64,000 nt of DNA from Candidatus Babeliales bacterium (GTDB lineage Bacteria > Babelota > Babeliae > Babelales > JANWKD01): the NCBI GenBank assembly GCA_963701665.1, contig OY969622.1:992001-1056000 (forward strand). Reading direction: 5' to 3'. Under the pieces are notes generated by a model. That model saw nothing but the letters and a program-made list of their open reading frames with translations. It was not told the DNA's origin and did no database searches. Position 1 is the first letter of the stretch. Each line of letters opens with the position of its first letter. The translations under genes and the position numbers were made by a program. Below, piece after piece: positions 8,867-51,655 of this stretch.

Positions 8867-9831
8867 AAAATTTCTTTAAAAAACGATTCTCTGGATTTAT
8901 TTCCAAAAACTACCTGATACAAACCTTGCAATAATGGTAACTTCAATTGTCTTCGCTCACACAATTGTTGAATGGCTTTGAGGGTCGTAACACTTTCTGG
9001 CACGGCGTGCATGGAAGCAAGTATCGCATCTAATTTTTCACCAGCACCTAAGCGATGCCCAACGGTTCTATTCCGGCTTCTACCGTACGCCGTTAATACA
9101 AGATCTCCAATACCCGCAAAAGAATCCACCGTTTCTTTCTTCCCGCCGAGTGCATCAACCGCATACTTTAATTCTTTGAAAGCGTACGTTAGCACTGCAG
9201 CTTGCGTTGATTCGCTGTAACGAGCGCCATCCAGCATGCCAATCAATAATGCTATGCAATTTTTTAAGGCACCACATATTTGTAAACCGAGCACATCATC
9301 ACAAGCAACAAGATGCAAACTATCGTTTTTTAACAGGTTTATAACTTCAGCTGTTATCTTCGCATCAGAACCTGCACAATTTACGACAATCTTTTGTTGT
9401 GCAACAATATCGTGCGCATAACTCGGGCCTGAGATAACGACTTTCTTTGTTTCACGAGAATAGACATCATCAATGATTCCAGAAGGAAATAATAACGAAT
9501 CTTCTTCTATGCCTTTACTCAGTATCACCCAAACATGTTCTTCATGGTTGCTGCTTTTTACCTGTTGCGCAACAGAACGCAAAAATTTTGTTGGAATTGC
9601 TTCAAAAATATATGAACTATTTTGTATTGCGAGCGCAATATCATGAAAGGGTGTAATTGATTCGGGGATTTTTACGCCTTTACATGCATAACTATTCTCT
9701 CGTTTTTCTTTGATGTGGCGATACACTTCCTGATCGTAACACCACCATTGTACCGTGTGCCCATTGCGCGCGAGTACTAAAGCGAGTGCCGTACCAAAAG
9801 CACCCTCGCCAAGAACCGTAACGATGCTCAT
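8863..9831 (-). CDS. gpsA: NAD(P)H-dependent glycerol-3-phosphate dehydrogenase
   Basis: VLGEGAFGTALA, LSKGIE, ISGPSYA, GALKN, GIGDLVLT and SRN motifs. Confidence 0.93.
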   Translation of the reverse strand: MSIVTVLGEGAFGTALALVLARNGHTVQWWCYDQEVYRHIKEKRENSYACKGVKIPESITPFHDIALAIQNSSYIFEAIPTKFLRSVAQQVKSSNHEEHVWVILSKGIEEDSLLFPSGIIDDVYSRETKKVVISGPSYAHDIVAQQKIVVNCAGSDAKITAEVINLLKNDSLHLVACDDVLGLQICGALKNCIALLIGMLDGARYSESTQAAVLTYAFKELKYAVDALGGKKETVDSFAGIGDLVLTAYGRSRNRTVGHRLGAGEKLDAILASMHAVPESVTTLKAIQQLCERRQLKLPLLQGLYQVVFGNKSRESFFKEIF

Positions 9832-10526
9832 GAGCCCATATTCCTTTGAATGCGCTTAAATTCTGAAAGGGCTCCTGCTAAATCTTGTTCGGTTATTTCT
9901 GGCCACAAGCAATCAAGAAAACATAATTCACTATAGGCCGCTTGAAAGAGCAAAAAATTACTCAATCGTTTTGTGCCGCCCGTGCGAATAATAAGTTCCG
10001 GTTCAGGAATATTCCCCATCCATAAATATTTTTTGAATATTTCTTCGGTGAAATCTTCAAGGGCAAGAAGGCCATTTTTAATATGTGTAATCATCTTTTT
10101 AACAGCACCAAAAATTTCCTGCTGGCCACCATAACAGAATAGTAAATTGAGATTTAAGGCTGAGCAATCTCGCGTTTTTTCTTCAACCGTTGCAATAGTT
10201 GCACGAATTACTTCGGGAAATAACGTTTCATCCCCAATAAAACGGATATGCACTCCTTGCTCAATAAATTTTGCTAAATTTTCTGTCAGTACCGTTATCA
10301 AAAGGGAAAAAAGATGAGATACCTCTTGTTCTGACCGCTTAAAGTTTTCAATCGAGAATGTATACAGTGATACATATTTAATATTATTATCCAATGCAAA
10401 CTGTATAACTCTTTTTACGGATTCAGCACCTTGGTTATGGCCAAACCAGGGCGTAAGTCCTTGCTTTTTTGCCCAACGGCGATTGCCATCCATGATGCAG
10501 GCGAGATGTTGTATCATGCTACTCAT
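9828..10526 (-). CDS. uppS: Undecaprenyl diphosphate synthase
   Basis: HLACIMDGNRRWA, YTFSIENFKR, IIRTGGTKRLSNFLL. Confidence 0.96.
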   Translation of the reverse strand: MSSMIQHLACIMDGNRRWAKKQGLTPWFGHNQGAESVKRVIQFALDNNIKYVSLYTFSIENFKRSEQEVSHLFSLLITVLTENLAKFIEQGVHIRFIGDETLFPEVIRATIATVEEKTRDCSALNLNLLFCYGGQQEIFGAVKKMITHIKNGLLALEDFTEEIFKKYLWMGNIPEPELIIRTGGTKRLSNFLLFQAAYSELCFLDCLWPEITEQDLAGALSEFKRIQRNMGS

Positions 10527-11295: not shown

Positions 11296-11967
11296 ATGTA
11301 TTACAAAGCTATTATTTTCGATATGGATGGTACCATTATTGATACCTCTCATATCTGGCGCCAAGCAACAAAAGATTTAATCACGAAGCACGGGATTGAT
11401 TTCGATCATGAAGCTCATGAAGATCTTCACGCAAAACTTCATGGCCTTGGCATGAAAGAAAGTTGTTCAATTATTAAGAACCACTTTAACCTTAATGCCT
11501 CCATTGATGTTCTTATGCAAGAAAAATCTCAAATTGCTGCAGCGTTATACAAAAATAACATCACTTTTGTTGATGGATTTCAAGAATTTCATCAACGAGT
11601 AAAACAAGCACAGCTAAAAACCGGTATAGCAACCAACGCTGATGATGTTACCTTACATATCACCAAAACTACTTTGAATCTTGAACAATTCTTTGGTGAA
11701 CATATTTATAGTATTGCGCATGTAAACTATGTGTGTAAACCAGATCCAGCTGTTTATCTTCATGCTGCAGCAAAACTGGCAGTTGCACCGCAAGAATGTA
11801 TCGCTATTGAAGATTCTGCTCACGGTATTGAAGCGGCAAAAAAAGCGGGCATATTCTGCATAGGCATTAATACCGGAAAAAACAGGGCAAACATTGCCGG
11901 CAGTGATTTGATTATTGAGTCATATAATGAACTTGAACTAAGTAAGCTTCTGGTAAAATTATCATAA
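11296..11967 (+). CDS. HAD-superfamily phosphatase (beta-PGM/CbbY-like)
   Basis: IFDMDGT, ATN, KPDP and IEDS..GIEAA motifs; AAGGA RBS before ATG 11296. Confidence 0.9.
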   Translation: MYYKAIIFDMDGTIIDTSHIWRQATKDLITKHGIDFDHEAHEDLHAKLHGLGMKESCSIIKNHFNLNASIDVLMQEKSQIAAALYKNNITFVDGFQEFHQRVKQAQLKTGIATNADDVTLHITKTTLNLEQFFGEHIYSIAHVNYVCKPDPAVYLHAAAKLAVAPQECIAIEDSAHGIEAAKKAGIFCIGINTGKNRANIAGSDLIIESYNELELSKLLVKLS

Positions 11968-11969
11968 CG

Positions 11970-13052
11970 TTATTCGATTACTTCTGATATATCAACAATT
12001 TCCTGAAATCCTTGTTCGTTAGAATCTTTATCTTCTGCTAGTTGGGCAAGGTCATCATACAATTTATTTTTTTGGGATGTGATAACTTGTATTATGTCCT
12101 CTACTTTTTTCTGGTCATCACTGGAATATGTATGTTGTTTATAGAATTCTCGGCCAGGTTCGCCTCGCCATTCTTTAACTATATAAGGCAAACACAAACA
12201 ACCCATTCCTCCACATACAAAGGTGCTAATTCCACCGATAATAGCTATCGCTACTCCAAGATTTTCATCAACCAGACATGCCACTGCGGTACCGACACCT
12301 ATACTGCAGCACCCACATAGACAACAAAGACAGCCTGGAACACGGGCACAAGAACAATTTTCTTCAGCCTCATAGCTTTCAAGACGCTTTTTAAAATATT
12401 CCAATATTCCTATTCGTATAGCATAAAAATCAGAACGAGTAATCGCTACTTTGGAACCAGCGCTTAATTCGTTCCATTTTGTTGGCGTTCTTTTGGAGAA
12501 TTTTTTTAATTTTTTTTCTATTAAAACACGATCAAGAAGATCCGTATTTGCCGTATAATCATTGCGCCTCAAAAATGGAATGCCACTGGGACCTACCATT
12601 AGTTGATTTAAGGAGCGTACATCTTTAGAAAAGGAATATAATTTATTTGATTCTGACCCATATTGAGTATGTTCAAAAAAATGTATCATTTGATAACCAA
12701 ACTTTTCTGATGTAGGATCATCACGATGTTCACAAAGATGCTTTACAAATGCTGTTTCTACTTTTGCAAAAACTTTATCACTTGGATAAAAGCTATTAAG
12801 TCTTATTAAATAGTTAAGTCCTCTATTATTTCCAGGCAAAAAATCAAAAATCATTTCCTTTACTTCATTAGGCATTTCTGCAAGCGTTATGGTATCGATT
12901 GATACATCACTATAGCCTAGGTAATTTTTCAGCTTTGCTAGCAAACCGGTTTGTTCTGTCGGTTCCTCTTGTTCCTCCATTGAATATATATAAGCTGTGC
13001 TAGCCAACACGATGCTAAGCATCATTCCTGTTATTATATTTTTAAAGATCAT
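11970..13052 (-). CDS. Exported protein with F-box-like motif and Cys-rich hydrophobic hairpin (paralogue 1 of 3)
   Basis: Signal ending IYS-MEE; TLAEMPNEVKEMIFDFL; CLCCLCGCC-containing two-helix segment; similar to the next two genes. Confidence 0.7.
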   Translation of the reverse strand: MIFKNIITGMMLSIVLASTAYIYSMEEQEEPTEQTGLLAKLKNYLGYSDVSIDTITLAEMPNEVKEMIFDFLPGNNRGLNYLIRLNSFYPSDKVFAKVETAFVKHLCEHRDDPTSEKFGYQMIHFFEHTQYGSESNKLYSFSKDVRSLNQLMVGPSGIPFLRRNDYTANTDLLDRVLIEKKLKKFSKRTPTKWNELSAGSKVAITRSDFYAIRIGILEYFKKRLESYEAEENCSCARVPGCLCCLCGCCSIGVGTAVACLVDENLGVAIAIIGGISTFVCGGMGCLCLPYIVKEWRGEPGREFYKQHTYSSDDQKKVEDIIQVITSQKNKLYDDLAQLAEDKDSNEQGFQEIVDISEVIE

Positions 13053-13073
13053 GATTATTCTTTTTGAGAGTAG

Positions 13074-13130
13074 ATTATTGAATCGTATAACGAACTTGAA
13101 TTAACAAAGCTGCTGGTAAAGTTATCGTAA
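13074..13130 (+). pseudogene. Orphan copy of the last 18 codons of the HAD phosphatase gene
   Basis: Translates IIESYNELELTKLLVKLS* versus IIESYNELELSKLLVKLS* at 11911-11967. Confidence 0.85.
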
Positions 13131-13132
13131 CG

Positions 13133-13969
13133 CTATTCAATAACCTCAACTTCCCCTTCGATTTTAAGATAATTTAAATTCGTTTGAGCTTGGTTAATTG
13201 ACTGTACTATGGTGAGTATTTTTCCATCCACTTGTTTCTCAAAAATATTGCGACTCTTTCGATCGATCTCAGCGCATCGTTGTGCCATATCTTCACAAAA
13301 AAGACATGAAACTCCCCCGAGACCTATTTCCAGAAGACCCGTAGCTAACACCCATGCTCCTGTTAGCGGATCGAATAAAGCTAATAGGGGAACAGCTGCA
13401 ACTGTCTGGGAACATCCACACAGACAACAAGAACCTCCAATAGCAGTGTTCAACAAGCAGGTCGCCTCACTGTGATAACTCTCGATTCTTTTTTCAAAAT
13501 AATTGAGTATTTTCGCGCGAAGCGTATAAAAATGAGAACGCGTGAGTTCTTTCTGGGTGCCCGCGCTTAATTGCTGCCATTTTTTTGGCGTTGCGATACA
13601 AAATGTAGTTAACTGATTTTCTATTGCCCTCTCATCCAGATCATCAACGCTTACTACATAATCATGAAACCTCAAGCAAGGAATGTCAGGAGATGGTATT
13701 AATTCATGTAAGGAACCTACATCATCAAAAATACTATTTATGTCCTCTTTGGATAAATTTTTAAATTTTTCCGTTATGTGACAGGGCAATGTTTTTACTA
13801 ACTTATCATTGTCTGCACAAGAAAATTTTTCTCTTAATAGTTCGATATTTTCAAGATACACATCACTTTCAAGATGCTCATCATGCTCATCTTTTTCCAT
13901 CGAATATACATAAGATGCAATCAACATCATGCTAAGCATCGTTACTTTTGTTATAGCTTTGCATATCAT
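13133..13969 (-). CDS. Exported protein with Cys-rich hydrophobic hairpin (paralogue 2)
   Basis: Signal ending VYS-MEK; shares DV.SL..LI, LSAG...TRS.FY..R..IL.YF.KR.ESY and terminal EVIE with paralogue 1. Confidence 0.7.
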   Translation of the reverse strand: MICKAITKVTMLSMMLIASYVYSMEKDEHDEHLESDVYLENIELLREKFSCADNDKLVKTLPCHITEKFKNLSKEDINSIFDDVGSLHELIPSPDIPCLRFHDYVVSVDDLDERAIENQLTTFCIATPKKWQQLSAGTQKELTRSHFYTLRAKILNYFEKRIESYHSEATCLLNTAIGGSCCLCGCSQTVAAVPLLALFDPLTGAWVLATGLLEIGLGGVSCLFCEDMAQRCAEIDRKSRNIFEKQVDGKILTIVQSINQAQTNLNYLKIEGEVEVIE

Positions 13970-13993: not shown

Positions 13994-14845
13994 TTACTCT
14001 CGAAGATCATTGTCGCCATTTTCCCGATAATGGTAATCGCCATCACTATTTTGATGTAGAAGACTACTTATTTTTGTTTGGCATTCTCCAAACTTTTTTA
14101 TTATCTCTTTGATCTTCTTTGAATCATGCTGTTCATCATCCGACTTATTACAATAGTCACAGTATTTACATTGTAAAAATAGATCTTCCTCTGCACAATT
14201 ACGTACGGCACAAGAATAACTTGCACCCATAGAGCCGAGAGCTAGCAATGTTATACCTAAACCCACCAATGTTGCTGGATGGGATGCGCTACATCCTGCC
14301 GTAGTTATCCCCAATCCACTTGTACCAAGACCAGTACATGGCAAACAAGCTGGATGTAGAATCGATTCAACCCGATAACTTCTAACGCGTTGTTTATACT
14401 CTTCCAATACTGCTCCCCTCACGGTATAAACATCATAATGAGATAGTATTCTTTGAGTATATGGCTTTAGAACATTCCGTAATGTTGAACTGTTGTCATA
14501 AAAAATATTTAATGCTCGTTCTATTTCTTCTTGGTTAAGATCATCGGTATTCGCTGTCATATTTCGCCATGCAAACCAAGGAAGATCAGGATGTGGTATC
14601 ACGGAATCTAATAATGAAACATCATTAAAAATAATGGCTCTGTCACTTTCTTGTATACAGTCTAATCTTAGCATTAAATCATCGGATAGCGGTAATATTT
14701 CGTCATCAGTATTTTTTCCACAACAAAAATATTCTTTTGGATATTTTAACAATCTAAGTGCTTCGGGTTGATTATCATCCATCGAATACAGATGAACATT
14801 AGCCAACAGCACAATAGTTAGGACTGCGATTATATTTTTGAACAT
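13994..14845 (-). CDS. Exported protein with Cys-rich hydrophobic hairpin (paralogue 3)
   Basis: Likely start MFKNII (TAATG overlap with the upstream stop); signal ending LYS-MDD; DVSLLD, TANTDDL and KQRVRSY match the paralogues. Confidence 0.7.
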   Translation of the reverse strand: MFKNIIAVLTIVLLANVHLYSMDDNQPEALRLLKYPKEYFCCGKNTDDEILPLSDDLMLRLDCIQESDRAIIFNDVSLLDSVIPHPDLPWFAWRNMTANTDDLNQEEIERALNIFYDNSSTLRNVLKPYTQRILSHYDVYTVRGAVLEEYKQRVRSYRVESILHPACLPCTGLGTSGLGITTAGCSASHPATLVGLGITLLALGSMGASYSCAVRNCAEEDLFLQCKYCDYCNKSDDEQHDSKKIKEIIKKFGECQTKISSLLHQNSDGDYHYRENGDNDLRE

Positions 14846-15165
14846 TATGATTGCCTTTTTGATTGGAACCAGTTTTTTATTCCTATACATACATAGGTAT
14901 ATCCTACATTCAGTGCTGCATCAATTGTTTCATCAACTCCCCGCGCCAATCTAAGAAGATTATATGAAGCGGTAAGGGCTGGTGTCAGCTCAGAGAAATA
15001 TTCATCCTCAGACGTATGATGTTCTGATAAAATATTTTCAATATCCGTTGCATGTTCTGATGTACAAATTTGTTCTGGAGATAGAATCTTTGCAACTTCC
15101 ATCGCGTGTGAGGAAAGTTGAAAAAACAAAAAAGTAGTATAAAAAAAAGAAGATTGTTTTTTCAT
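14845..15165 (-). CDS. Small exported hypothetical protein
   Basis: Signal ending SHA-MEV; stop overlaps the next start. Confidence 0.6.
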   Translation of the reverse strand: MKKQSSFFYTTFLFFQLSSHAMEVAKILSPEQICTSEHATDIENILSEHHTSEDEYFSELTPALTASYNLLRLARGVDETIDAALNVGYTYVCIGIKNWFQSKRQS

Positions 15166-20652: not shown

Positions 20653-21837
20653 TTGTATTATTTTAATGTCTTTAATCTTCTAGGAATAAGCCTCGTGGTT
20701 TGCATCATTAAGAAGTGTTCGGTTGTATTTTTATTATTATATAATTTCCCCTCCTATTGCGCTGAAAATAAGCCCAATACTGATCCTCTTGAAAAATTAG
20801 ATGAGTTACTTGCTCGAATCCCTACCGACGAATTTCTTCAACATATCACTGACCAAGAAAAGCGTAAGTTTCTTAAAGCTCTTTTTGAGTACAATAAAGA
20901 CACCGAAAATAGCCCAAAAAACTCAGAAGGCTCTTATCATTTTGAACCCCGACAGCCAGCCCCATTAACTAATGAACAAAAAACAATCCCTATTCATGAA
21001 AGAATTAAGAAGAAATTTATTGGCGATCTTCCCGGTAGAATTAATGATTTAATTTTCTATTTTAGCAATCAGGAGCTATGTCTAAAAAATAACAAATCAA
21101 TCTACAATAGAATTTTGCTTCATGGGCAACCTGGCACAGGAAAATCTCATCTGGTAAAAGTACTTGCTGAAGAATTACAAGTCCCCTATTTTTATTTTCC
21201 TGCCTCATTTTTTGCTGATAAATACATTGGCGAAACCTCGAAAAAAATTCGTGCCGCATTTGCTTGCGCAAAGAACCTCAAAAAACCTGTTATTATTTTT
21301 ATTGATGAGATAGATGGGCTTGCATCTAAAAGAAAAGATAATACACATGACGAACAACGTGCATCATTAGTAACGCTTTTAACTGAAATGCAAGATCTAC
21401 AGCAAAATAAAAATATTTTTATTTTCGTTGCGACTAATGATCTTAAAGCATTAGATCCAGCCATAAAAGATCGCTTTGCAGGCTCAATATGCGAAATTAA
21501 ACCTCTCACCTTAGAAGAAAGAGCCGCAATGTTTAAAAAAGCATTTAAAGAACATGGAATTACAATTGAAGATAATTTTGCAAAAAGGCTAGCTGAAGTT
21601 ACTAATACAACAACCAAGGATGAAGAAACAAAAAATAAAATTTTAAATTTTTCCAACAGAGACATTGAAAGTATAGCAACAACTGTTGCTTTTCGCCAAT
21701 TTGCAGAATGCCATAAAGATAAAGCGAATTGCAATAAACACCTCTGTCATTATGCTCGTAAGGTAATTGATGAAACAGGCAAAAAAGCTTCATTCACAAC
21801 ATTTCATATTAACTATGAGTTTTGTGAAGGAATTTAA
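20653..21837 (+). CDS. AAA+ ATPase (classical clade) with signal-peptide-like N-terminus; first gene of toxin-like locus 1
   Basis: GQPGTGKS Walker A, DKYIG pore loop, IFIDEID Walker B, ATND, DPAIKDRF, FSNRDI; start possibly GTG at 20695. Confidence 0.85.
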   Translation: MYYFNVFNLLGISLVVCIIKKCSVVFLLLYNFPSYCAENKPNTDPLEKLDELLARIPTDEFLQHITDQEKRKFLKALFEYNKDTENSPKNSEGSYHFEPRQPAPLTNEQKTIPIHERIKKKFIGDLPGRINDLIFYFSNQELCLKNNKSIYNRILLHGQPGTGKSHLVKVLAEELQVPYFYFPASFFADKYIGETSKKIRAAFACAKNLKKPVIIFIDEIDGLASKRKDNTHDEQRASLVTLLTEMQDLQQNKNIFIFVATNDLKALDPAIKDRFAGSICEIKPLTLEERAAMFKKAFKEHGITIEDNFAKRLAEVTNTTTKDEETKNKILNFSNRDIESIATTVAFRQFAECHKDKANCNKHLCHYARKVIDETGKKASFTTFHINYEFCEGI

Positions 21838-24577
21838 AACAAGCATTAAAATTTTATTCAATATATTTCTTCTTTTTTATTCGTTGAATAATTGGGCAAT
21901 GGATCAAAAGATTGAGCCATATTCATCATTTGAAGATTGGGGCTCTTCGGATGATTCGTCTAGCTCTTCGGATTCATCTAGCTCTAACGATGTTATTGCC
22001 ATTTCAAAATCATCAACAGAAACGGATGAATCATCTTACAAAGAATATATCCGCGAGTTCTATGAAAGCTCATCATATCAATATGTAGATTATGATGAAG
22101 AACATGCCTCGACGACAAACTCCCAAGCCCATTCCAACTCAAAATCAGATAGCCATACTGCTTCCAGCCAATCACATGCAATCCCAGTAATAGCATATCC
22201 AACCAATCAGCACCCTTCTTTTTCATCAAATAAAGAATCAACACGACACGCCAGAATGAGTCACCTCAATAATTCAGTAGGTACTTTCAGACGACGTTCA
22301 CAATATTATGCAGACAGAGATCTGGCTGTAAAAAGATACTTAGGCGTTCGCAATCAACTTAATGCAGAAGATCAAGAAAAATTTGCACATGAAAATAAAA
22401 ATCTTCATAAGCTTGCTATGAAACACCTTGAATATGAAAATCGTCCTTCTACTGGAGAACGAATAAAACAAGGATTTAAAGCACTAGGAGAAAATATATC
22501 AAGTACGAAGCAACGTATTGGTAGTTGGTGGCAAGGCTCGAGCAATAATAATGAAAACCAAAAGCACCAATCAACTACAAACGATTATAAAAGTGCCACT
22601 GCAGAACAAAATCGCAATGCACGATATAACGATTATAAGAACGCAAGCTTTGAACAACAAGGAAGTCTTAGCAAAAGACGGCGCGAGCAAGATTATAACA
22701 ATAGCATTCAAGAACAATTAAAGTTCATAGAAGAAGAGCCAACTAAAGATCTTAGATCTAGTGATAAAAGTCAAAATAAGCCTTTAACTAAACAAGAGCC
22801 TGAATTTCTGCAAGAACAAGCTCTTGGTGAAAAAGAACTTGAACAAAAAGCAGCCCAAGATCAGTTACGTTATGAAAAAGAGATTGAAAGACTCAATGAA
22901 AAATTTGAAATTGAACAATCTCAACACAGACTTGATGAAATAGGAAAATTAATCAAGTCTTTTGCTGAACGTCCTACCAATGAACTGCCTAAAATTGATG
23001 CGCCTAACTCCAGGCAAGACGTTTCTGATTATTACCTGGATGATTTAGATGATTTCTCATTCTCTGAAAATAACCAAGACGATCCATTCACGCATAAAGA
23101 ATGCGCTCTCGGACAAGATGAAAATTGGACTAAATCAAAGAATGTCAGCACTGAAGCATTATCTTCGGTCGTAAAAGATTTTGAAAAATCTGCTGTTGAT
23201 TTTCTAACAACTGGCCGACATGAATCAAAACATATTGACCCTAAAATAGTTAATGAAATTATTAATGATCCTGCAACACCAAAGAATATTGTTAAACTTT
23301 TAGAACACAATAATAGTTTACAAAACAGCACAAATAATAAAGAACTACGCGATTTATCAATCACCACAACTGAGCTTCTTGTTTATGCTGAAACTCTATC
23401 AAGAAAAATAGCTGAAGATGTTTATAAGACGTCTCAAGAAGAAGCAAGGTTAAATAATGCCATCAAAGATAAAATTATTGATGTTGCCACCAACATTGGA
23501 GAATATATTGACATTGCGCTAGAAGAATTAAAAGCAAGACGTAATGAAAATATTGAACGGCCAATTGAAGCAATTAAATCAAGTGTAGAAGCGGCAGGTC
23601 ATGTAGCCATGGAATGCGGTAAATTAGCTGTTTTACTTATCCCAACAGAACACATGCCTCTTTTAAAAAATCTATCTCCAGAAGATTCTTCAACGTTAGA
23701 AAAAAAATCTCTTGAAGAGATGAGTAAAATAATCCATACAGTTGAACAAAATTTTTCTGAATTTAAAAATCTTCCTCCACAAGAACAATTCAGATCTGCT
23801 GTACGAACTGTTCTCAACGCTGCCTCGCTGATTCTTGTAGCCAAAACTTGTTCGCAAGTACTAGCAACTTTACGAACAAGCGCCGCTCATGTAAATGATT
23901 TGAAAGGTGTTGCAACAACAGCTGAAGAAATGGCTACTCTTGAATCATCAGCTCAATTAATATCCCAAGAGCAAAAATTGGTTCACGCTGTTGAACAAGC
24001 TATTGAAAATAACCTCACGCAAGCATCTGAGCATATACCGGGAGCACCAAAATTTAATCAAAAAGATGCTTTAGCTAAAGAATTTGCAGAATCAGAAACA
24101 GGGAAAAAAATTGGCGCTAGACTAGAAAAATCTGCTTCTGAGAAAGCAAAACCTTCGGGCTCATCGGGTAACGCATCTCATTCTGCGGTGGAAGTAGAAA
24201 CTCCGGAAGCCATTAAGAATTTTAACCCTGCAAACCAAAATGCGATTAAAGAATTTCCCAAAGATCTTATTAAAAACTATAAAGACCATATTTTTTCAAA
24301 AAATCATAGAAGAGATGGAATTTTAAGGTTAGGAGCAAATGAATCTGAAATTATAAACAAAATTACGGATATAATATTAGAAACAGATCAGGTGGGATTA
24401 ATTAAACCAGCAGAGAAAAATGTCATTCTTACTGTTATTCAGGGTAAAGATGTTATTATTAGGGCTACATTAAATGAATCTGGTAAAATAATTAGTATGA
24501 ATGGTTATCTAAATACTTCTTCTACTATTCCAAGTAATGGTAATGTAGTTAGGTATATTTCGGAAAAATATAAATGA
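21815..24577 (+). CDS. Large exported protein with putative C-terminal toxin domain (BECR-RNase/Ntox35-like)
   Basis: Signal ending NWA-MDQ; low-complexity and coiled-coil body; linker then a ~100-aa tip DHIFSKNH...IQGKDVIIRATLNESGKIISMNGY; ATGA overlap with the next gene. Confidence 0.6.
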   Translation: MSFVKEFKTSIKILFNIFLLFYSLNNWAMDQKIEPYSSFEDWGSSDDSSSSSDSSSSNDVIAISKSSTETDESSYKEYIREFYESSSYQYVDYDEEHASTTNSQAHSNSKSDSHTASSQSHAIPVIAYPTNQHPSFSSNKESTRHARMSHLNNSVGTFRRRSQYYADRDLAVKRYLGVRNQLNAEDQEKFAHENKNLHKLAMKHLEYENRPSTGERIKQGFKALGENISSTKQRIGSWWQGSSNNNENQKHQSTTNDYKSATAEQNRNARYNDYKNASFEQQGSLSKRRREQDYNNSIQEQLKFIEEEPTKDLRSSDKSQNKPLTKQEPEFLQEQALGEKELEQKAAQDQLRYEKEIERLNEKFEIEQSQHRLDEIGKLIKSFAERPTNELPKIDAPNSRQDVSDYYLDDLDDFSFSENNQDDPFTHKECALGQDENWTKSKNVSTEALSSVVKDFEKSAVDFLTTGRHESKHIDPKIVNEIINDPATPKNIVKLLEHNNSLQNSTNNKELRDLSITTTELLVYAETLSRKIAEDVYKTSQEEARLNNAIKDKIIDVATNIGEYIDIALEELKARRNENIERPIEAIKSSVEAAGHVAMECGKLAVLLIPTEHMPLLKNLSPEDSSTLEKKSLEEMSKIIHTVEQNFSEFKNLPPQEQFRSAVRTVLNAASLILVAKTCSQVLATLRTSAAHVNDLKGVATTAEEMATLESSAQLISQEQKLVHAVEQAIENNLTQASEHIPGAPKFNQKDALAKEFAESETGKKIGARLEKSASEKAKPSGSSGNASHSAVEVETPEAIKNFNPANQNAIKEFPKDLIKNYKDHIFSKNHRRDGILRLGANESEIINKITDIILETDQVGLIKPAEKNVILTVIQGKDVIIRATLNESGKIISMNGYLNTSSTIPSNGNVVRYISEKYK

Positions 24578-25296
24578 ATAAAAATTTATTATTAAAAAAT
24601 ATTAATAAACAAATAGATCAATATAGAAAAAATAACTATGACATGACAACATTCAGTAATATACGAAAAACTTTTGATGAATATTTACATGTTCACCCAA
24701 AAGATACGGAAATTTGGCTGAGTTATGCTTTATGCATGTATAAATTAGCCGAAGGCAGTGATTATCCTGAAGAATGCTTAAGGAAAATATTAGAATACGA
24801 TCAAGACAATCTCTATGCTATAATGTTACTTGTCTATATTAATGCACACGATTCGTATATTAGTGACCAGCTTTTTAAACAGTTATGCAACTTAAAAAGC
24901 AATGACAATCAAATATTATCGATGATAGAATATGAAAAAATTTGGTACTATAAAGATGTTGAAAATTATGAAAGAGTATTAACTGATTCTGTTCAATTAT
25001 ATGATAAACATGTTTGGAATAATGTTAAATTGGGATATATTTATTTAGAAAAAGGAGAGATCAAAATAGGACAAGAATTAATATTAAAGGGGTTAAAAAA
25101 TGTTCAACTTGTTTATGATGATGATACTGTATATGACGAATTAAGTATCGAAGAATATTTTAACGAAACGATTAAAGGAATTCACTTAACAGATATCAAT
25201 TACAATTCTATTATTGATTCATTAGACCCAAATTATCTTAAGCCCATTATGGATTTGATTAATAGACATCTTGCTCGCAATTCATCTCAAGAATAA
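24574..25296 (+). CDS. TPR-like helical protein, candidate cognate immunity protein (copy A)
   Basis: Coupled to the toxin-like gene; no signal peptide; TPR-like pattern; paralogues downstream. Confidence 0.6.
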   Translation: MNKNLLLKNINKQIDQYRKNNYDMTTFSNIRKTFDEYLHVHPKDTEIWLSYALCMYKLAEGSDYPEECLRKILEYDQDNLYAIMLLVYINAHDSYISDQLFKQLCNLKSNDNQILSMIEYEKIWYYKDVENYERVLTDSVQLYDKHVWNNVKLGYIYLEKGEIKIGQELILKGLKNVQLVYDDDTVYDELSIEEYFNETIKGIHLTDINYNSIIDSLDPNYLKPIMDLINRHLARNSSQE

Positions 25297-26296
25297 TTTA
25301 AGAAAATGGGCTTATGCTGCTTCATACATCACTTTTACTATGTTAATTCATAAAGAATATTCTCAATATTTATATTTAATGATTAATAATTTTCCTATCA
25401 AATTACGCAACTATACCTTCGAATATCCTATTCCAATAAGAGTATGTGTTAAAAATTATGATAAATTCGAAGAAGTATTGGGTGATACAAAATATTTATA
25501 CATTAGTAAGGGCAGTCTTTCAGATACAACTGAATTAGTTGTCGATGATTATTCAAAAAAACTACTAATGTTACAAGTAATAGCCTCGAACCAAATTACC
25601 TTTCATGACCTTGATTTCGATATCGATAGTTATTTAAGCTATAATTCTTACATAGCCATAAATATTACAAATGATTCTTTTGAAAAATGGGAAAAATATC
25701 TTCCTGCATTAGATACCCAACCAAAAATACATGTTTTTAATAGCCTTATTGTATTAATAATAGATGAAAATAAATGCCCCGCTTATATGTTTTCAGAAAA
25801 TAATAAATTTGGCGTTATAACCAATAAAGACTTAAACATTGCGGCCTTTTTTATAAACAATATTACTGAAAAAGATAAAAAAATCATCAAAGAACATGCA
25901 AACTATCTTAATTCACCAAATCAAGAAAGTGCATTTCCCTTTAACAAATGCAAAACAACAATTATGGAACATAAAAATTATTTAATAAAAAAAATTATAG
26001 AGCTTGAAAATGTCAATTTATGGGATGTTATTTATTATGGTCTTGAACGAAAATTAATCAATAATAATTTTGTAATAGAATCTGCTATTGCTATGTTAGA
26101 GCATAATAAAACATCTGATAATATTACTCTTGAAATAGCAAGCCTGCTTAATCATGAATTAGAAAAAGTATCTATTTTACTCAACGAAAAAGTAAATAAA
26201 GATGAAGTTATGATTAATAAAGGACCTTTTTATAATAAAATTTGGTTATATCTTTCAGTTGCTTCAGATATGTGTGCAGCAAAAATTATCAAATAA
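25271..26296 (+). CDS. Hypothetical two-domain protein; C-terminal part DUF2247-like, immunity-type
   Basis: W.VIYYGL..KLI...FVI...A...LEIASL...KIWLYLS pattern; start uncertain. Confidence 0.5.
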   Translation: MLAIHLKNNLRKWAYAASYITFTMLIHKEYSQYLYLMINNFPIKLRNYTFEYPIPIRVCVKNYDKFEEVLGDTKYLYISKGSLSDTTELVVDDYSKKLLMLQVIASNQITFHDLDFDIDSYLSYNSYIAINITNDSFEKWEKYLPALDTQPKIHVFNSLIVLIIDENKCPAYMFSENNKFGVITNKDLNIAAFFINNITEKDKKIIKEHANYLNSPNQESAFPFNKCKTTIMEHKNYLIKKIIELENVNLWDVIYYGLERKLINNNFVIESAIAMLEHNKTSDNITLEIASLLNHELEKVSILLNEKVNKDEVMINKGPFYNKIWLYLSVASDMCAAKIIK

Positions 26297-27881: not shown

Positions 27882-28430
27882 ATGCTGGTTTGCAAACAAG
27901 GCATAGATGAAAATAACACTGACCCAATTGATATCAACGTTGCTACTAATGACGATATGAAAAATAAAACAGAATGTAATCAATCTTTTTTTTCACATTC
28001 TGATTGTTTTAAGCGAAAATTGCATCAATATTTTAAAGGATACTTTATTGGAGGATTCGATTTTCGTTTATATGAAAATGACAACTTAATTATAAAAAAT
28101 AAGGATCATTTAATAAAAAAGATAACAGAACTCGAGAATGTTGATCCTTTGAAAGTCATTTATTATGGATTAACCTGAGAATTTATTAATTATCAATTTG
28201 TGCTAGAATATTGTTATTCGCTTATCGAAAAGACAAACCGTACACATCAATTTATCCTTGATATTGCTGCACTTTTCCAAGAAAACGACTTATATAATCT
28301 CCCCAAAAAGATTGCTGCAGAAATTACCCTTCCTCAAGATGTTGCAATTGATAGGGACCAATATTACGGGAAAATCTGGGCTTATCTTTCAGCTGCGGCT
28401 GAAATATGCTCAGAAAAAATTACTAAATAA
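27882..28430 (+). pseudogene. Interrupted paralogue of the C-terminal domain of 25271-26296
   Basis: LIKKITELENV..VIYYGLT*EFINYQFV...KIWAYLS; in-frame TGA at 28176-28178 aligns with CGA(Arg) in the intact copy. Confidence 0.7.
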
Positions 28431-28558: not shown

Positions 28559-29839
28559 ATGAAAAAGAAGCTTTATTCTATTATTCTATTTTTTCTAATG
28601 ACTTCTGCCTTCCCTGTAATGGCAGAAGGAACGGATCGGCCAAGATCTGACCAGGAAGAAACCTGGCTAACCATTATTATACATGGGATCTTGAATGCCA
28701 AGCCGCATATTTCTATTTCTAATATCATCCTGGTCCTTCGAGATCAACTTGAAAATACGATTTATGCCCACACCATTGATATTACGCGAAATGATCCCTT
28801 CTTTTATCAATATCACCCTATGCAAAAGCCAGGTTTACAAAAAATAGATTTTAATGATATCGGACCAGGCAAAGCAGCCACGGCATTTGCTCGGCTTTAT
28901 GATGAAATGAGTGCCCTAAACCAGAAAAAGCCGGTCAAAAACGTATATTATACCTTTGGTTGGACCGGCATATTAGGCATGAACGTACGTATCCTGGATG
29001 CCCAAATCTTTTATGACCAGCTGTTAACAGAGATCAATGCCTATAAAGCACAGGGCATTAATCCTAAAATTCGGATTATAGGCTACAGTCACGGCGCTCA
29101 TATTGCCCTCCATTTAGGAACTATTCATAAGCAACGCGCGCAAGAAAATTTACTTGATCCTATTGATCAAATAGTTTTATTGGGGCTACCTATTGTATGT
29201 GATATGGATTATTTGGTTCATAGTCCCTTATTTAAAAAGATTTATAACCTCTATTCGACTGGCGATAGGGTACAAATTGCTGATTTTATGTCCTATCAGA
29301 AGTTCTTATCATATCGAACCTTCAACGAACGCCCTACCTTTGAGGTCCCTGATAATCTTACGCAAGTCCAATTGCGCTGGAAACGGCTTGCACGCACAAG
29401 AAAAAAATATACCTATCCCTATTATCCAAAATGGCTTATTCGTAATTCTGATCCAGGACATAGTGAACTTTTTTCATTTGGCTGGATTTATAATTACCGA
29501 CAATATGTACCATTTTATCCAATGCCTATATGCTGCTATGTTGGTTACTTTTTGAATGCGGTTGAAAATAGCGATCTTAATGCAAACCATCTCTGTCTTG
29601 AAGTTCATCCTTTTGCTGAGACTATGTCGCTCAAAGCACAAACGGCAAGAAATGCATTAAACATGCCGTTCCTCACCTTTGAACAACAACAACATTTTGT
29701 GGATGTAACTAATTCATTTAGACCGGTGAATTTCAATCTCGCACTATTCAATGAACGTACGGCGCAGACAATTGAATTAGCAAAACAACGATTTGAAGAA
29801 CAAAATGCATGTCATTCTTTAGTTAAAACCTGCGAGTGA
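28559..29839 (+). CDS. Exported alpha/beta-hydrolase-like protein
   Basis: Signal peptide; IIIHG, FGWTG, IIGYSHGA nucleophile elbow, NLYS.GD.VQ, PGH. Confidence 0.7.
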   Translation: MKKKLYSIILFFLMTSAFPVMAEGTDRPRSDQEETWLTIIIHGILNAKPHISISNIILVLRDQLENTIYAHTIDITRNDPFFYQYHPMQKPGLQKIDFNDIGPGKAATAFARLYDEMSALNQKKPVKNVYYTFGWTGILGMNVRILDAQIFYDQLLTEINAYKAQGINPKIRIIGYSHGAHIALHLGTIHKQRAQENLLDPIDQIVLLGLPIVCDMDYLVHSPLFKKIYNLYSTGDRVQIADFMSYQKFLSYRTFNERPTFEVPDNLTQVQLRWKRLARTRKKYTYPYYPKWLIRNSDPGHSELFSFGWIYNYRQYVPFYPMPICCYVGYFLNAVENSDLNANHLCLEVHPFAETMSLKAQTARNALNMPFLTFEQQQHFVDVTNSFRPVNFNLALFNERTAQTIELAKQRFEEQNACHSLVKTCE

Positions 29840-30648
29840 TTCTCAAGAAGTTTTAGTATTGCTTGGTTACCTTTTCTATCCGCCAACTCACGCGGAGTAG
29901 CATATTCTTCAACATAATAGCCATTCATGCCTCGTTTATTTGAATAGGCAAAGCGTTGATCCGGATTTGCCCCATGAGCTAATAATATTTGTACTAAACC
30001 GGTATTTTCTTTTTCTATTCCTAACGCCAAACCTGTATATTCATCACCTAGAAAATTTCGATAGTATACCGCGTTAACATCTTCTCCATGGTTAAGACAA
30101 TATACTACCGTCTTTATATCCGGTATTGAAAGAGCATCTTGCAAAAACTCTCCTTTGGCACCTTGCACAAGAAAGTATGCATAATAAAACCGTGCCATAC
30201 AGGGATATCTGTATACATAGGAATCTTTTACATTGCCAGGTTTGTGAATGGCATGTGAAAAGGTCTGATTAGGAACCTTGGTAGTTGGATATAGCAATTT
30301 CTTAATAATTTCTTCCGGATAGAACCAAGGCATATTACTTTTTTTATATTTTTCGATTAATTTTTTTCGTATCGGTTTAGAGCTCGGCAAAAACTCAGAA
30401 AAAAATTGATAAGTTTCTTTATCAATATATCGAACCTTCGTGAGTGATAAAGCTGCCTCCTCTATATCCTTTGATTCATCGATGGTTATAACGATAATCT
30501 TTTCGAGTATTTCTGAAGGTAGTATATGTACAAAAGAATAGCCTAATCTTTTGGGATCTTCTTTCCATTCTTCCATCGAGTATGAGCACCAAGAAAATAA
30601 TAAGAACATGCAAGTAACTATTTTTTTATAAGCGGAACCTGTAAACAT
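29812..30648 (-). CDS. Exported ankyrin-repeat protein with F-box-like motif
   Basis: Signal ending SYS-MEE; ILPSEILEKII; LNHGEDVNA, LLAHGANPD, TPRELA. Confidence 0.75.
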   Translation of the reverse strand: MFTGSAYKKIVTCMFLLFSWCSYSMEEWKEDPKRLGYSFVHILPSEILEKIIVITIDESKDIEEAALSLTKVRYIDKETYQFFSEFLPSSKPIRKKLIEKYKKSNMPWFYPEEIIKKLLYPTTKVPNQTFSHAIHKPGNVKDSYVYRYPCMARFYYAYFLVQGAKGEFLQDALSIPDIKTVVYCLNHGEDVNAVYYRNFLGDEYTGLALGIEKENTGLVQILLAHGANPDQRFAYSNKRGMNGYYVEEYATPRELADRKGNQAILKLLENHSQVLTKE

Positions 30649-30690: not shown

Positions 30691-30779
30691 TTTAATGAAC
30701 GGCATAGACCGTTGAATTAGCAAAGCAAAGGTATGAAGAATAAAATGCATGTCATTCTTTGGCTAAGGCTCGTGAATGA
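30691..30779 (+). pseudogene. Decayed copy of the 3' end of the hydrolase gene 28559-29839
   Basis: A*TVELAKQRYEE*NACHSLAKARE* versus AQTIELAKQRFEEQNACHSLVKTCE*. Confidence 0.75.
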
Positions 30780-31579
30780 TTCTCAAGAAGTTCTATTATT
30801 TCTTGGTTACCTTTTCTATGCGCTAATTCACATGGCGTCATGTAATATTCAATGACATGACCTCCTATGCCTTCTTTCCTTTTTCGTTTAAGTTTCTTAT
30901 TGGGATCTGCATTACAAGCTAATAATTTTTTTACTAAATCAACATTATCGAAATCAATGGCCTTCGTTAACGGTGTCCATTGCTGATCCATCTTATTATT
31001 GTGCCAATATACACAAAGTATATTAGCATTCGCCCCATGATTGAGACAAAATACCGCTGTTTTTGAATCATTTTTTTCATTAGCTATTTCAAAAAAGTTA
31101 TTTTTATTATCATCGCGTACATAAGGATAAAAGAAACGAGCAATATTTGGAGAATGCTGCCGATATGCTGCTTGCGCAAGATTAATAACCATCGATAAAG
31201 TACTCGTAGGGCATAAAAACTTTGTAGCGAGGTTACTTGCAAGTTTGGGCAAATAAAGATCTCTTTCTAGTTTCTTCACGAGCTTTTTTTGTATTTCATT
31301 TGAAAATGCTTCCTGCGCCAAGGAACTTTTTATAGCATTAGATGTTTCCCGGTCGACATATTCGAAGGATTTTAATGATTTAAAAGCAATGTCGCTAGTT
31401 TCAGATTCATCAACAAGCGCCAAAACAACTTTTTCTAATATTTCTGGCGGCAAAATTTGCGCAAATGAACAATTTAATGTGCCCGGATTTTCTTTTCCCC
31501 ATTCTTCCATAGAATATGAACACCAGAAAAACAAAAAAAGAAAATATATTGATAATTTTTTATGATAAAACGTAATCAT
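30752..31579 (-). CDS. Exported ankyrin-repeat protein, tandem paralogue of 29812-30648
   Basis: WCSYSMEEW shared; ILPPEILEKVV; TPLTKAI, NADPN, TPCELA. Confidence 0.75.
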   Translation of the reverse strand: MITFYHKKLSIYFLFLFFWCSYSMEEWGKENPGTLNCSFAQILPPEILEKVVLALVDESETSDIAFKSLKSFEYVDRETSNAIKSSLAQEAFSNEIQKKLVKKLERDLYLPKLASNLATKFLCPTSTLSMVINLAQAAYRQHSPNIARFFYPYVRDDNKNNFFEIANEKNDSKTAVFCLNHGANANILCVYWHNNKMDQQWTPLTKAIDFDNVDLVKKLLACNADPNKKLKRKRKEGIGGHVIEYYMTPCELAHRKGNQEIIELLENHSRALAKE

Positions 31580-50629: not shown

Positions 50630-51655
50630 TTACTTTAATTCACACTCTTTTACTTCAGCTTCACTAAACCTTTTAATGATGTAGGCAATTTCCTGCACAA
50701 CTTCTTCAGGCAATAAACCATAATCTTCTGCAATTTTCTCAACACGGTAACTGAGGTCCCAAAATGGGATATCCGCCCATTGCCTCTTCCATTGTCCCAT
50801 ACAAACATTTGCTTTCATCGCATCTAATTGATCACAACGATGTTTTACCCTGGTTGATGCATCACTATGTTTGTTGTTAAAGCACACATATTCAATGAAT
50901 GAATTTTCTTTTGTATGCAATCGATCTATTTCTTTTGTGACCGCTTTTTTAAAAACACTTTCAGAGGAATTTTTTTGTAAGATAAGTATTCTCTTTTTCA
51001 TAGACTCTAGTTCTTGCTCTAACTCCGATCGAGAACATTTTAATTCGTCATTACATAATTTTTCAACCTCCTCCAGCACATGATCAAGTCTGTTCTCAGC
51101 TTTCCCACACATATCTTTCACTGCCGCCCTATAAAAATCTTCAGAATTTGCTTCGTGGCTTAAAATTCTCCGATGAACATCATCAGTATTATTTTCTACA
51201 TAAGGGTGCACAGCACAATATAAAAAAAAATTCAAACGGGAACAATGATCATCTTGCGATAGCTTAGATGGTGAACCTTCTTTTAAAAAATTTATTCTAG
51301 GCGTACATGCTTTTCCAACTTTTGAGTCTTCATCGTAGAGTGTATCAAAACTACATTCTTCAACATCGTGTTTTCTTAACATTTCTTTAGCCATATGTTC
51401 TTTAGCAATAAGTGATAAAGGACGTACCGGACGCACCTTTCTTAAAGATGATTGGTTTTCTGTTTGGCTAGATTTCTCGAAATTTTCTTGTGTTTCACGA
51501 TTAGCAGATTTTTCTTCTTGTACCTGTTGCACGCCTTCAGTTTTTTCATAAGCTCTCTGCGCTGCCTTGAGCCATTTATCTGCATCATCCTGCATGGCAT
51601 TCAGCGATGTAACAAAAATAATAGTCGGCAGTATAATTTTATACATGCGTTGCAT
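50630..51655 (-). CDS. Array gene 7: shared leader fused to an unrelated non-ankyrin body
   Basis: LNA-MQDDADKWLKAAQRAYEKTEGVQQV leader, then no ankyrin motifs; start placed after the SD-like junction motif. Confidence 0.7.
   Translation of the reverse strand: MQRMYKIILPTIIFVTSLNAMQDDADKWLKAAQRAYEKTEGVQQVQEEKSANRETQENFEKSSQTENQSSLRKVRPVRPLSLIAKEHMAKEMLRKHDVEECSFDTLYDEDSKVGKACTPRINFLKEGSPSKLSQDDHCSRLNFFLYCAVHPYVENNTDDVHRRILSHEANSEDFYRAAVKDMCGKAENRLDHVLEEVEKLCNDELKCSRSELEQELESMKKRILILQKNSSESVFKKAVTKEIDRLHTKENSFIEYVCFNNKHSDASTRVKHRCDQLDAMKANVCMGQWKRQWADIPFWDLSYRVEKIAEDYGLLPEEVVQEIAYIIKRFSEAEVKECELK

What the first reader, a model, noticed from the sequence alone, without database searches (positions are those of the whole stretch)
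11911..13130. Effector gene bracketed by two versions of the HAD gene 3' end that differ almost only at synonymous sites
Seen: 11911-11967 and 13074-13130 encode the same 18-aa C-terminus and stop, with 7 synonymous codon differences, one S/T change and no indels. Each is followed by CG and the stop codon of a convergent paralogue ending EVIE. A dead duplicate should decay at random, so both versions were probably coding for most of their history. Established: some integrative elements (e.g. e14 and phage 21 at icd) replace the 3' end of their target gene. Inference: 11970-13052 arrived from a relative together with that relative's HAD tail and displaced the resident tail. No integrase is visible, which suggests homology-anchored cassette accretion.
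Basis: partly seen in the sequence, partly recalled or inferred. Interest (0 to 1): 0.72.

Follow-up and report, generated by a model that had tools for sequence, protein, structure and literature searches.

The report
Rival alleles stacked behind HAD gene
In a Babeliales (protist-parasite) bacterium, two distantly related, likely secreted genes sit side by side with a spare, differently spelled copy of the neighbouring phosphatase gene's last 18 codons between them, which is likely the scar of one strain's version of this variable gene slot recombining in beside another's; scars of this kind are known, but here they suggest that some tandem 'paralogues' are captured alleles.

Summary
Observation confirmed: 11911-11967 and 13074-13130 differ at 9 of 57 nt, giving 7 synonymous codons and one S/T change. 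Short contigs from other runs bridge the joint, so it is no assembly artefact. Local duplication fails: the flanking paralogues are 37% identical with saturated silent sites, yet the spare tail is intact. About ten such downstream tails occur genome-wide (secA, valS, gyrB, gatB, hpf); six core-gene tails pool to pN/pS 0.08. A sister contig carries HAD, X1 (11970-13052, 96%) and X3 but no X2 (13133-13969); another carries a third allele. At valS, the sister lacks the insert and ends ValS with the spare tail's residues. Best reading: two alleles of one variable slot were joined by homologous recombination in HAD plus one illegitimate joint, without an integrase. The kind of event is known (rhs and T6SS displacement arrays, homology-facilitated illegitimate recombination, e14/icdC). 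This scan already noted it at gyrB and maf in this genome and in six other genomes. The addition here is protein-level evidence of the parental alleles and allele stacking as a source of tandem arrays.

The parts
11296..11967 (+). HAD-IA (beta-phosphoglucomutase-like) hydrolase gene, 223 aa; the likely recombination anchor
   Evidence: Pfam HAD_2 E 3e-29; NCBIfam TIGR01509 above cut-off; matches in 37 of 41 genomes searched
11911..11967 (+). Working HAD tail (IIESYNELELSKLLVKLS*), the S version
   Evidence: S at this site in 3 of 3 relatives at 96-98% identity
11970..13052 (-). X1, 360-aa orphan-family protein with a hydrophobic leader ending S-M-E, an F-box-like-looking segment (sub-threshold) and a Cys-rich hydrophobic stretch; ends EVIE; likely the incoming allele
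   Evidence: 96% homologue P0001 on a 1,323,443-nt contig
13053..13073 (-). 21-nt leader of X1 with a ribosome-site-like AAAAAGAA; the non-homologous joint lies at its far end (about 13073)
   Evidence: Sequence; bridged by contigs of two other runs
13074..13130 (+). Spare HAD tail (IIESYNELELTKLLVKLS*), preceded by an in-frame TAG; likely the displaced end that travelled with X2
13133..13969 (-). X2, 278-aa member of the same family, 37% identical to X1, ends EVIE, lacks X1's N-terminal F-box-like segment; likely the resident allele
   Evidence: No cluster member on the sister contig
13994..14845 (-). X3, third family member (283 aa), first gene of the likely X3-X2-X1 operon
   Evidence: 90% to the sister's copy, against 96% for X1
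14959..14988 (-). Best sigma-70-like promoter match of the region (11 of 12), upstream of X3; predicted to drive X3-X2-X1
   Evidence: consensus match only (12 sites found, 14.6 expected by chance)

Best explanation
The spare HAD tail is likely the scar of a one-off capture in which DNA from a related strain, carrying the 3' part of its HAD gene plus its own allele (X1) of the variable gene slot behind HAD, likely paired by homologous recombination inside HAD and was likely joined without homology about 58 nt before the resident HAD stop. The resident tail and the resident allele X2 would thus be pushed 1163 nt downstream, and both alleles now stand in tandem. Shown: two coding-type tails; two saturated paralogues; about ten similar footprints downstream of their genes; relatives with other allele sets; no nearby recombinase; ComEC, DprA and RecA genes. 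Inferred: uptake by natural transformation; the direction; a crossover near the middle of HAD; and that the tails differ so much at silent sites because codons abutting a non-homologous allele are rarely recombined away from it. Capture by one homologous and one illegitimate joint, in either direction or via a circle, I put at about 0.87; this exact route and direction at 0.6.
For: X1 and X2 are 37% identical over 278 columns with 6 of 18 four-fold sites identical, while the spare tail has 1.5 non-synonymous differences on 44 sites: it was released from selection far more recently than X1 and X2 split. Six core-gene tails (gatB, secA, hpf, gyrB, HAD, valS) pool to 46 synonymous vs 15 non-synonymous differences, pN/pS 0.08, P 1e-11; secA alone 3e-8. 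A 1,323,443-nt contig holds members of the clusters of gpsA (96%), the gene left of HAD (96%), HAD (97%), X1 (96%), X3 (90%) and 14845-15165 (97%), and none of X2's cluster. A 10,566-nt contig holds HAD (98%) and a third allele, P0002 (47% to X1). All 7 HAD differences to the sister lie in residues 1-102 of 214 and none in 103-214, while P0012 is identical to this genome over 1-101 and differs at 3 sites after 102, which fits a crossover in mid-HAD. At valS, the sister's ValS ends WIAKILL like the spare tail and the insert's cluster has only this genome's member; another relative ends WVAKILI like the gene. At hpf, the spare ending KTGLKKRE is the working end in 2 of 3 relatives. ComEC, DprA and RecA are present. 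HFIR was proposed for the analogous Vibrio arrays (PMC5361080, passages).
Against: No relative shows the T tail as a working HAD end: 0 of 5 proteins at 87-98% identity end like it. No HAD-X2 empty-site DNA was seen. Contigs were matched by length only; their gene order and DNA were not seen. The HAD mosaic rests on about 7 informative sites and could equally be a recombination in the P0012 lineage. The single-locus test weakens to P 0.06 with two more codons. The core/accessory grouping was made after seeing the cases; 3 of 6 accessory cases (pN/pS 0.43-1.06) look like ordinary decayed copies. The likeness of X1's leader to the X3-X2 spacer is weak (54 of 2185 leaders score as well). HFIR is rare in the laboratory and usually deletes about as much as it inserts; in E. 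coli conjugation, circle-plus-single-crossover duplications outnumbered it about tenfold (PMC3240628, passages). Competence was not tested; the ComEC is a short 371-aa form.
Confidence: 0.6

Rival explanations
1. Same capture, reverse direction: this lineage had HAD(S)-X1-X3. Foreign DNA carrying a HAD tail (T), X2 and X3 recombined by homology on the X3 side and was joined without homology just upstream of X1, so the spare tail is the donor's.
For: The S tail is the norm among the 3 closest relatives and X1 is at background identity (96%) to the sister, while X3 (90%) is the divergent gene. T at that site occurs only in the more distant P0004 (87%).
Against: X3's differences are spread over its length and its last 12 residues are identical to the sister's, whereas a donor with near-saturated silent sites should give a far more divergent X3. 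The HAD 3' half matches the X1-bearing sister exactly. valS shows the other direction.
Confidence: 0.15
2. Circle and single crossover: donor DNA spanning the HAD tail and X1 circularised (by ligation or excision) and integrated by one crossover in the shared tail, duplicating it.
For: Proposed for rhs tips (PMC2935791, passages). Seen experimentally in E. coli with 109-950-nt duplications (PMC3240628, passages). Gives the same layout.
Against: The shared stretch is 58 nt at 84% identity with a longest identical run of 9 nt, a poor RecA substrate (own knowledge). The HAD mosaic points to exchange far upstream of the repeat. No joint forms were seen in the 7 runs laid, but coverage was very thin.
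Confidence: 0.12
3. Site-specific integration (e14-like, or Xer-borrowing) at a core GATTATTGA, with the element carrying the replacement 3' end; the integrase acts in trans or has been lost.
For: Same layout as icd/icdC around e14 (PMC13626634, passages). A 9-nt identical run opens both copies.
Against: The insert is one gene plus 21 nt. PF00589 finds only two genes, XerC/XerD-like by sequence, and the three serine recombinases lie more than 350 kb away. Twelve junctions share no motif: the commonest 5-mer is in 6 of 12, and repeat lengths run 41-210 nt. The HAD junction's dif match (10 of 14) is reached or exceeded by 403 of 2000 random windows.
Confidence: 0.04
4. Plain tandem duplication of [HAD tail + X] within the lineage, then fast divergence of X, with or without later gene conversion of the tail.
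For: Both tails are followed by CG and paralogues ending EVIE. The genome has many tandem arrays. Some accessory cases show pN/pS near 0.5-1.
Against: Silent sites of X1/X2 are saturated (6 of 18) while the non-coding tail keeps 84% identity with a synonymous bias. Conversion would reset identity but still predicts pN/pS near 0.5, against 0.06 observed. At secA, valS, gatB, gyrB and hpf the DNA after the two tails is unrelated (0-7 nt).
Confidence: 0.04
5. The spare tail is kept by its own function: a promoter for X1, an antisense read-through extension of X2, a small peptide, or a back-up end used when X1 excises.
For: It lies 21 nt upstream of X1. The minus-strand frame after X2's TAG stays open for 25 codons. 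A GAGAG precedes ATT ATT on the plus strand.
Against: No minus-strand promoter-like site lies in it. The read-through frame differs at 4 residues between the copies, against 1 in the HAD frame. An in-frame TAG precedes it. A promoter would not give third-position periodicity. Older spare tails carry stops (window 30699-30779; G001 L106).
Confidence: 0.05

Closest known systems
Homology-facilitated illegitimate recombination (HFIR) in Streptococcus pneumoniae, Acinetobacter baylyi, Pseudomonas stutzeri (as summarised in PMC3240628, passages read)
   Same: One homologous end, one non-homologous joint, about 1 kb inserted, no integrase, RecA and uptake genes present.
   Different: The laboratory products usually carry a deletion of similar size; here the joint falls inside the anchor gene's last codons, so nothing functional is lost. 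A 3-10-nt microhomology cannot be shown without parental DNA.
Sequential displacement in Vibrio cholerae T6SS effector-immunity arrays (PMC5361080, passages) and rhs C-terminal displacement (PMC2935791, passages)
   Same: Incoming DNA supplies a new 3' end and pushes the old end and the old downstream gene along; arrays of non-identical alleles build up.
   Different: There the displaced part is a variable toxin tip or immunity gene of a dedicated system. Here the anchors are ordinary housekeeping genes, the tail is functionally unchanged, and the stacked genes are whole convergent alleles, at about ten unrelated loci.
Insertion with long target duplication of restriction-modification genes (PMC2853133, passages)
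   Same: Repeats over 30 nt of variable length flanking an insert without mobility genes; reported mostly in naturally competent species; some overlap gene 3' ends.
   Different: The repeats tabulated there are 44-47 of 45-47 nt identical and the cargo is a nuclease system. Here the copies are 84% identical with coding-type divergence and the cargo has no recognisable nuclease.
e14 prophage at icd with the icdC pseudogene (PMC13626634, passages); phage 21 recalled, not checked
   Same: Working gene end supplied by the insert; spare end downstream differing mainly at synonymous sites.
   Different: e14 is a 15-kb element with SOS-induced site-specific excision. Here there is one gene, no integrase and no shared core.

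Membership tests
Integrase-driven element replacing a gene's 3' end (e14-type) | Recombinase gene in or beside the insert | tested here: not met
   Insert is X1 plus 21 nt; PF00589 and PF07508 hits lie 190 kb or more away
Integrase-driven element replacing a gene's 3' end (e14-type) | Fixed core/att sequence shared among insertions | tested here: not met
   12 junctions share no motif; repeat lengths 41-210 nt
Integrase-driven element replacing a gene's 3' end (e14-type) | Insert supplies a working 3' end; spare end downstream | tested here: met
Xer-exploiting element (IMEX/pdif) | dif-like sites at the joints | tested here: not met
   HAD joint scores 10 of 14 against a recalled dif motif, within background; a dif-like site lies at genome position 721033
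HFIR product | One end exchanged by homology in a shared gene | tested here: inconclusive
   Protein-level HAD mosaic with the 3' half matching the X1-bearing sister; few sites, no DNA
HFIR product | Other end a non-homologous joint, often with 3-10-nt microhomology | tested here: inconclusive
   Abrupt joint at about 13073; 8 of 10 nt match across it, but donor sequence unseen; spacer likeness weak
HFIR product | Uptake and RecA machinery in the host | tested here: met
   ComEC, DprA, RecA found; function untested
HFIR product | RecA dependence and a linear substrate | not testable with these tools
   Needs an experiment
C-terminal displacement array (rhs/T6SS type) | Spare 3' ends downstream, also found as working ends in other strains | tested here: inconclusive
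   Met at valS and hpf; not seen for the HAD T tail in 5 relatives
C-terminal displacement array (rhs/T6SS type) | Displaced part is a variable toxin tip with an immunity gene | tested here: not met
   The tail is 18 conserved residues of a phosphatase; X1-X3 hit no Pfam or NCBIfam family
Insertion with long target duplication | Near-identical repeats over 30 nt around a restriction-modification cargo | tested here: not met
   Repeat length fits, but 84% identity with synonymous bias and no RM cargo
F-box effector | F-box domain above family cut-off | tested here: not met
   No hit for X1 at E up to 1; only sub-threshold hits (E 0.03-0.12) in 2 of 8 homologues scanned

The most novel reading that the evidence does not exclude
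In Babeliales, tandem arrays of secreted 'paralogues' behind housekeeping genes grow largely by stacking ancient alleles captured from co-infecting relatives, anchored in the neighbouring gene, and not by duplication; each spare gene tail marks one capture, and its decay dates it. Tandem effector expansions in these parasites would then be a record of inter-strain exchange inside protist hosts.
Probability: 0.35. Interest if true: 0.65.

Novelty: new variant of a known kind. Interest (0 to 1): 0.4.

Why it matters
The scar itself is a known kind and this scan has met it repeatedly. Its value here is that it separates captured alleles from true duplicates. If it holds, part of the large secreted-protein repertoire of Babelota (44% of genes with signal peptides in Chromulinavorax, PMC6561590, passages) is built by recombinase-free exchange between strains, and a simple scan for synonymously diverged downstream tails becomes a countable, datable marker of HFIR-like events in natural populations, where the process is otherwise known mainly from laboratory selections.

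Tried and rejected
Genome-wide blastn of gene ends was swamped by repeats and was replaced by a local anchored scan. My first scan missed gyrB because the spare tail is fused in frame to the accessory gene; one search recovered it. GTDB relatives are too distant to assign the tails: the closest (G001, 76% HAD) lacks X1-X3 at this locus, and the best metagenome locus (79%) does too. No other HAD locus among those scanned had a spare HAD tail. The seven sequencing runs hold only 5-8% of the words; they showed no joints or empty-site forms, but coverage is too thin to mean anything. Structure of X1: mean pLDDT 48.6; Foldseek found nothing at E up to 0.001, so no fold claim is made. The protein atlas gave no result. 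GC and GC3 do not separate X1 from X2 or HAD. No leading/lagging-strand bias among 12 cases (5 vs 7). Exact look-ups for SecA and two inserts failed, and clusters whose member sits on 2-3 contigs may hide the sister, so only HAD and valS inform on direction. Prudhomme 2002 (PMC122325) was not held and was not read. No paper describing this in Babelota turned up in three searches, nor a genome-wide treatment; subscription journals are largely not covered, and no supplements were read.

Full report
Setting. The window is positions 992,001-1,056,000 of a single 1,337,192-nt contig, 37% GC. The closest HAD relatives in named genomes are labelled Candidatus Babeliales, intracellular parasites of protists (PMC6561590, passages). 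I call 11970-13052 X1, 13133-13969 X2 and 13994-14845 X3.

The observation. It is as described: 57 nt, 9 differences, 7 synonymous codons, one S/T, no gaps, then CG and the stop of a convergent gene ending EVIE, where 4 of the last 5 codons again differ only silently. Under a null of a neutral spare copy and a purifying gene copy, 985 of 200,000 simulations gave at most one residue change. The two codons just 5' of the spare copy half-match and include a stop; counting them gives P 0.06, so this locus alone is suggestive. Short contigs from other runs bridge the joint with 0 and 1 differences and cover the working tail with none, so the layout is not a collapsed assembly.

Not a local duplication. 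X1 and X2 share 37% of 278 aligned residues and 6 of 18 four-fold sites: silent sites are saturated. A non-coding copy of the same age would be unrecognisable, yet the spare tail has 1.5 non-synonymous differences on 44 sites. The antisense read-through frame differs at 4 residues against 1 in the HAD frame, and no minus-strand promoter-like site lies in the tail; the best site sits upstream of X3. The simplest reading is that the spare tail was a working HAD end until recently.

Genome-wide. An anchored scan of 3' ends within 8 kb (my own ORF calls and thresholds) gave 63 downstream candidates, 12 after removing paralogous context. Ten are plausible (gatB, secA, hpf, gyrB, HAD, valS, and four accessory genes; names from Pfam); two lie in coding DNA and are doubtful. 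Upstream there were 5 of 53: two are reciprocals of downstream rows, and three come from ORFs under 100 aa that I judge spurious. The distant control gave 0. For 5' heads upstream there were 5 of 57, of which only maf (19 identical codons, 1 synonymous) is a core gene; the rest look like signal-peptide likeness among paralogues. Pooled over six core genes: 46 synonymous vs 15 non-synonymous differences, pN/pS 0.08, P 1e-11. Six accessory cases (two taken) give 0.27, P 0.012, three of them 0.43-1.06. The grouping was made after seeing the cases. The twelve joints share no motif and repeat lengths run 41-210 nt.

Other genomes. In 400 kb of G001: 6 downstream rows (5 real, at 3 genes) and 0 upstream. 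In 400 kb of G003: 5 downstream and 2 upstream rows, of which 3 and 2 come from one repetitive protein. In 45 HAD-centred loci ranked as Babeliales-like (436 kb): 5 downstream, 2 upstream; in 33 more distant loci (318 kb): 1 weak downstream. G001's maf locus repeats this finding's layout: maf, two convergent paralogues with near-identical ends, two spare maf tails. I ran no proper control phylum, so I make no claim that the density is unusual.

Parental states, at protein level. A contig of 1,323,443 nt holds members of the clusters for gpsA (96.3%), the gene left of HAD (95.9%), HAD (96.7%), X1 (95.7%), X3 (90.1%) and 14845-15165 (97.1%). X2's cluster has two members, on this genome and on a 1,540-nt contig, and a search with X2 found only that cluster among 590 candidates. 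A 10,566-nt contig holds HAD at 98% and P0002, 47% to X1 and 37% to X2. So the slot behind HAD is occupied by different, anciently diverged alleles in close strains, and this genome has two. Contigs are identified by length only and order was not seen. At valS the same sister ends WIAKILL, as the spare tail does, and has no member of the insert's cluster, while another relative ends WVAKILI, as the gene does. At hpf the spare ending is the working end of 2 of 3 relatives. These two loci show directly that spare tails are real gene ends of relatives.

Direction at HAD. For X1 as the incomer: the sister has the donor-type set; all 7 HAD differences to it fall in residues 1-102 of 214; P0012 matches this genome over 1-101 and differs at three later sites; X1 is closer to the sister than its paralogue X3 is; valS goes the same way. 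Against: the S tail is simply the norm in 3 of 3 close relatives, none of 5 relatives ends like the spare tail, and the mosaic could have arisen in the P0012 lineage. Both directions share the same single joint.

Mechanism. ComEC (371 aa), DprA and RecA are present. PF00589 finds two genes, XerC/XerD-like, and PF07508 three distant serine recombinases. I favour HFIR: pairing within HAD, and a non-homologous joint 21 nt upstream of X1's start into the resident HAD's last codons. With only 2 nt between HAD and the slot gene, a joint that keeps the resident allele must fall inside HAD, which explains the spare tail (inference). A circle with one crossover gives the same layout and has experimental precedent (PMC3240628) but would have to use 58 nt at 84% identity. 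The near-saturated silent divergence in tails of strains otherwise 96-99% alike is explained, by inference, by their linkage to non-homologous alleles.

The cargo. X1-X3 hit no Pfam or NCBIfam family. A profile search found 21 representatives at E up to 0.001, and matches in 6 of 61 genomes, the strong ones within the family. Members have a hydrophobic leader ending before M-E/D, a Cys-rich hydrophobic stretch (X1 235-292) and, in X1 but not X2 or X3, an LPxE-type segment that gives sub-threshold F-box hits in two homologues; one homologue ends in a RING finger. The fold model is unreliable. A secreted, host-directed role is plausible and untested.

Against the known. It works like HFIR and like the displacement arrays of rhs and Vibrio T6SS loci, and looks like e14/icdC, but fails membership of integrase-driven elements, Xer-borrowing elements, toxin-tip arrays and RM long-target duplications. 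I read passages, not whole texts, of PMC5361080, PMC2935791, PMC2853133, PMC3240628, PMC13626634 and PMC6561590, and the abstract of PMC2568036. Earlier notes of this scan report the same footprint at gyrB and maf in this genome and in six other genomes; I re-found gyrB and maf myself and did not test the others.

Verdict. Real, non-random, and best explained as allele capture without a recombinase; a variant of a known kind. Interest 0.4. The bolder reading, that Babeliales build tandem secreted-gene arrays largely this way, is open at about 0.35.

Noticed in passing
window 28559-29839 (+), spare tail 30699-30779, ankyrin-type pair 29812-30648 and 30752-31579 (-): Same layout as the finding: a spare tail between two convergent paralogues 41% identical; older, with two stops (10 synonymous, 7 non-synonymous differences).
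   Followed up: partly
window 25271-26296 (+), spare tail 28371-28430: A decayed 60-nt copy of this gene's end 2134 nt downstream, after two paralogues of 24574-25296; pN/pS 0.43, so compatible with plain decay.
   Followed up: partly
window about 51400-57900 (-): Tandem array of about seven paralogues with a period near 1.05 kb, alternate copies more alike than neighbours.
   Followed up: no
window 21767-24577 (+): 936-aa protein with a weak C-terminal Ntox35 match (E 7e-5, just above cut-off), followed by three paralogous small genes with immunity-like layout; polymorphic-toxin reading untested.
   Followed up: no
L148:3011-3910 (G000 883511-884410): The spare gyrB tail is fused in frame as the C-terminus of the accessory gene; P0066 from another contig has the same fusion, P0065 ends earlier.
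   Followed up: partly
L144 (G000 116924-122085): secA has a 210-nt spare tail including the SEC-C motif, 22 synonymous vs 3 non-synonymous differences, behind a 731-aa orphan gene: the clearest case in the genome.
   Followed up: partly
L111:5468-8581 (G001): maf followed by two convergent paralogues with near-identical C-termini and two spare maf tails, a stacked version of this finding.
   Followed up: partly
L021, L044, L049, L062, L184, L192: Spare tails of gpsA and uppS recur near the HAD locus in several Babeliales-like contigs, suggesting a capture hotspot in this neighbourhood (L049 and L188 may be one genome).
   Followed up: partly
G000 721033: dif-like site (ATAA TATATA TTATGTTAAAA) about 10 kb from the GC-skew maximum at 731164 (motif recalled).
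   Followed up: no
G000 1253001-1254528: Three near-identical 132-aa genes in tandem with a 566-nt period; IS200-type transposase by my recall, not tested; a broken copy sits inside the gatB insert.
   Followed up: no
window 9244-9535 and 10009-10153: Runs X4 and X1 hold pieces 89-91% identical to gpsA and uppS alongside exact-match pieces elsewhere, hinting that close relatives co-occur in one sample; depth is 2-3.
   Followed up: no
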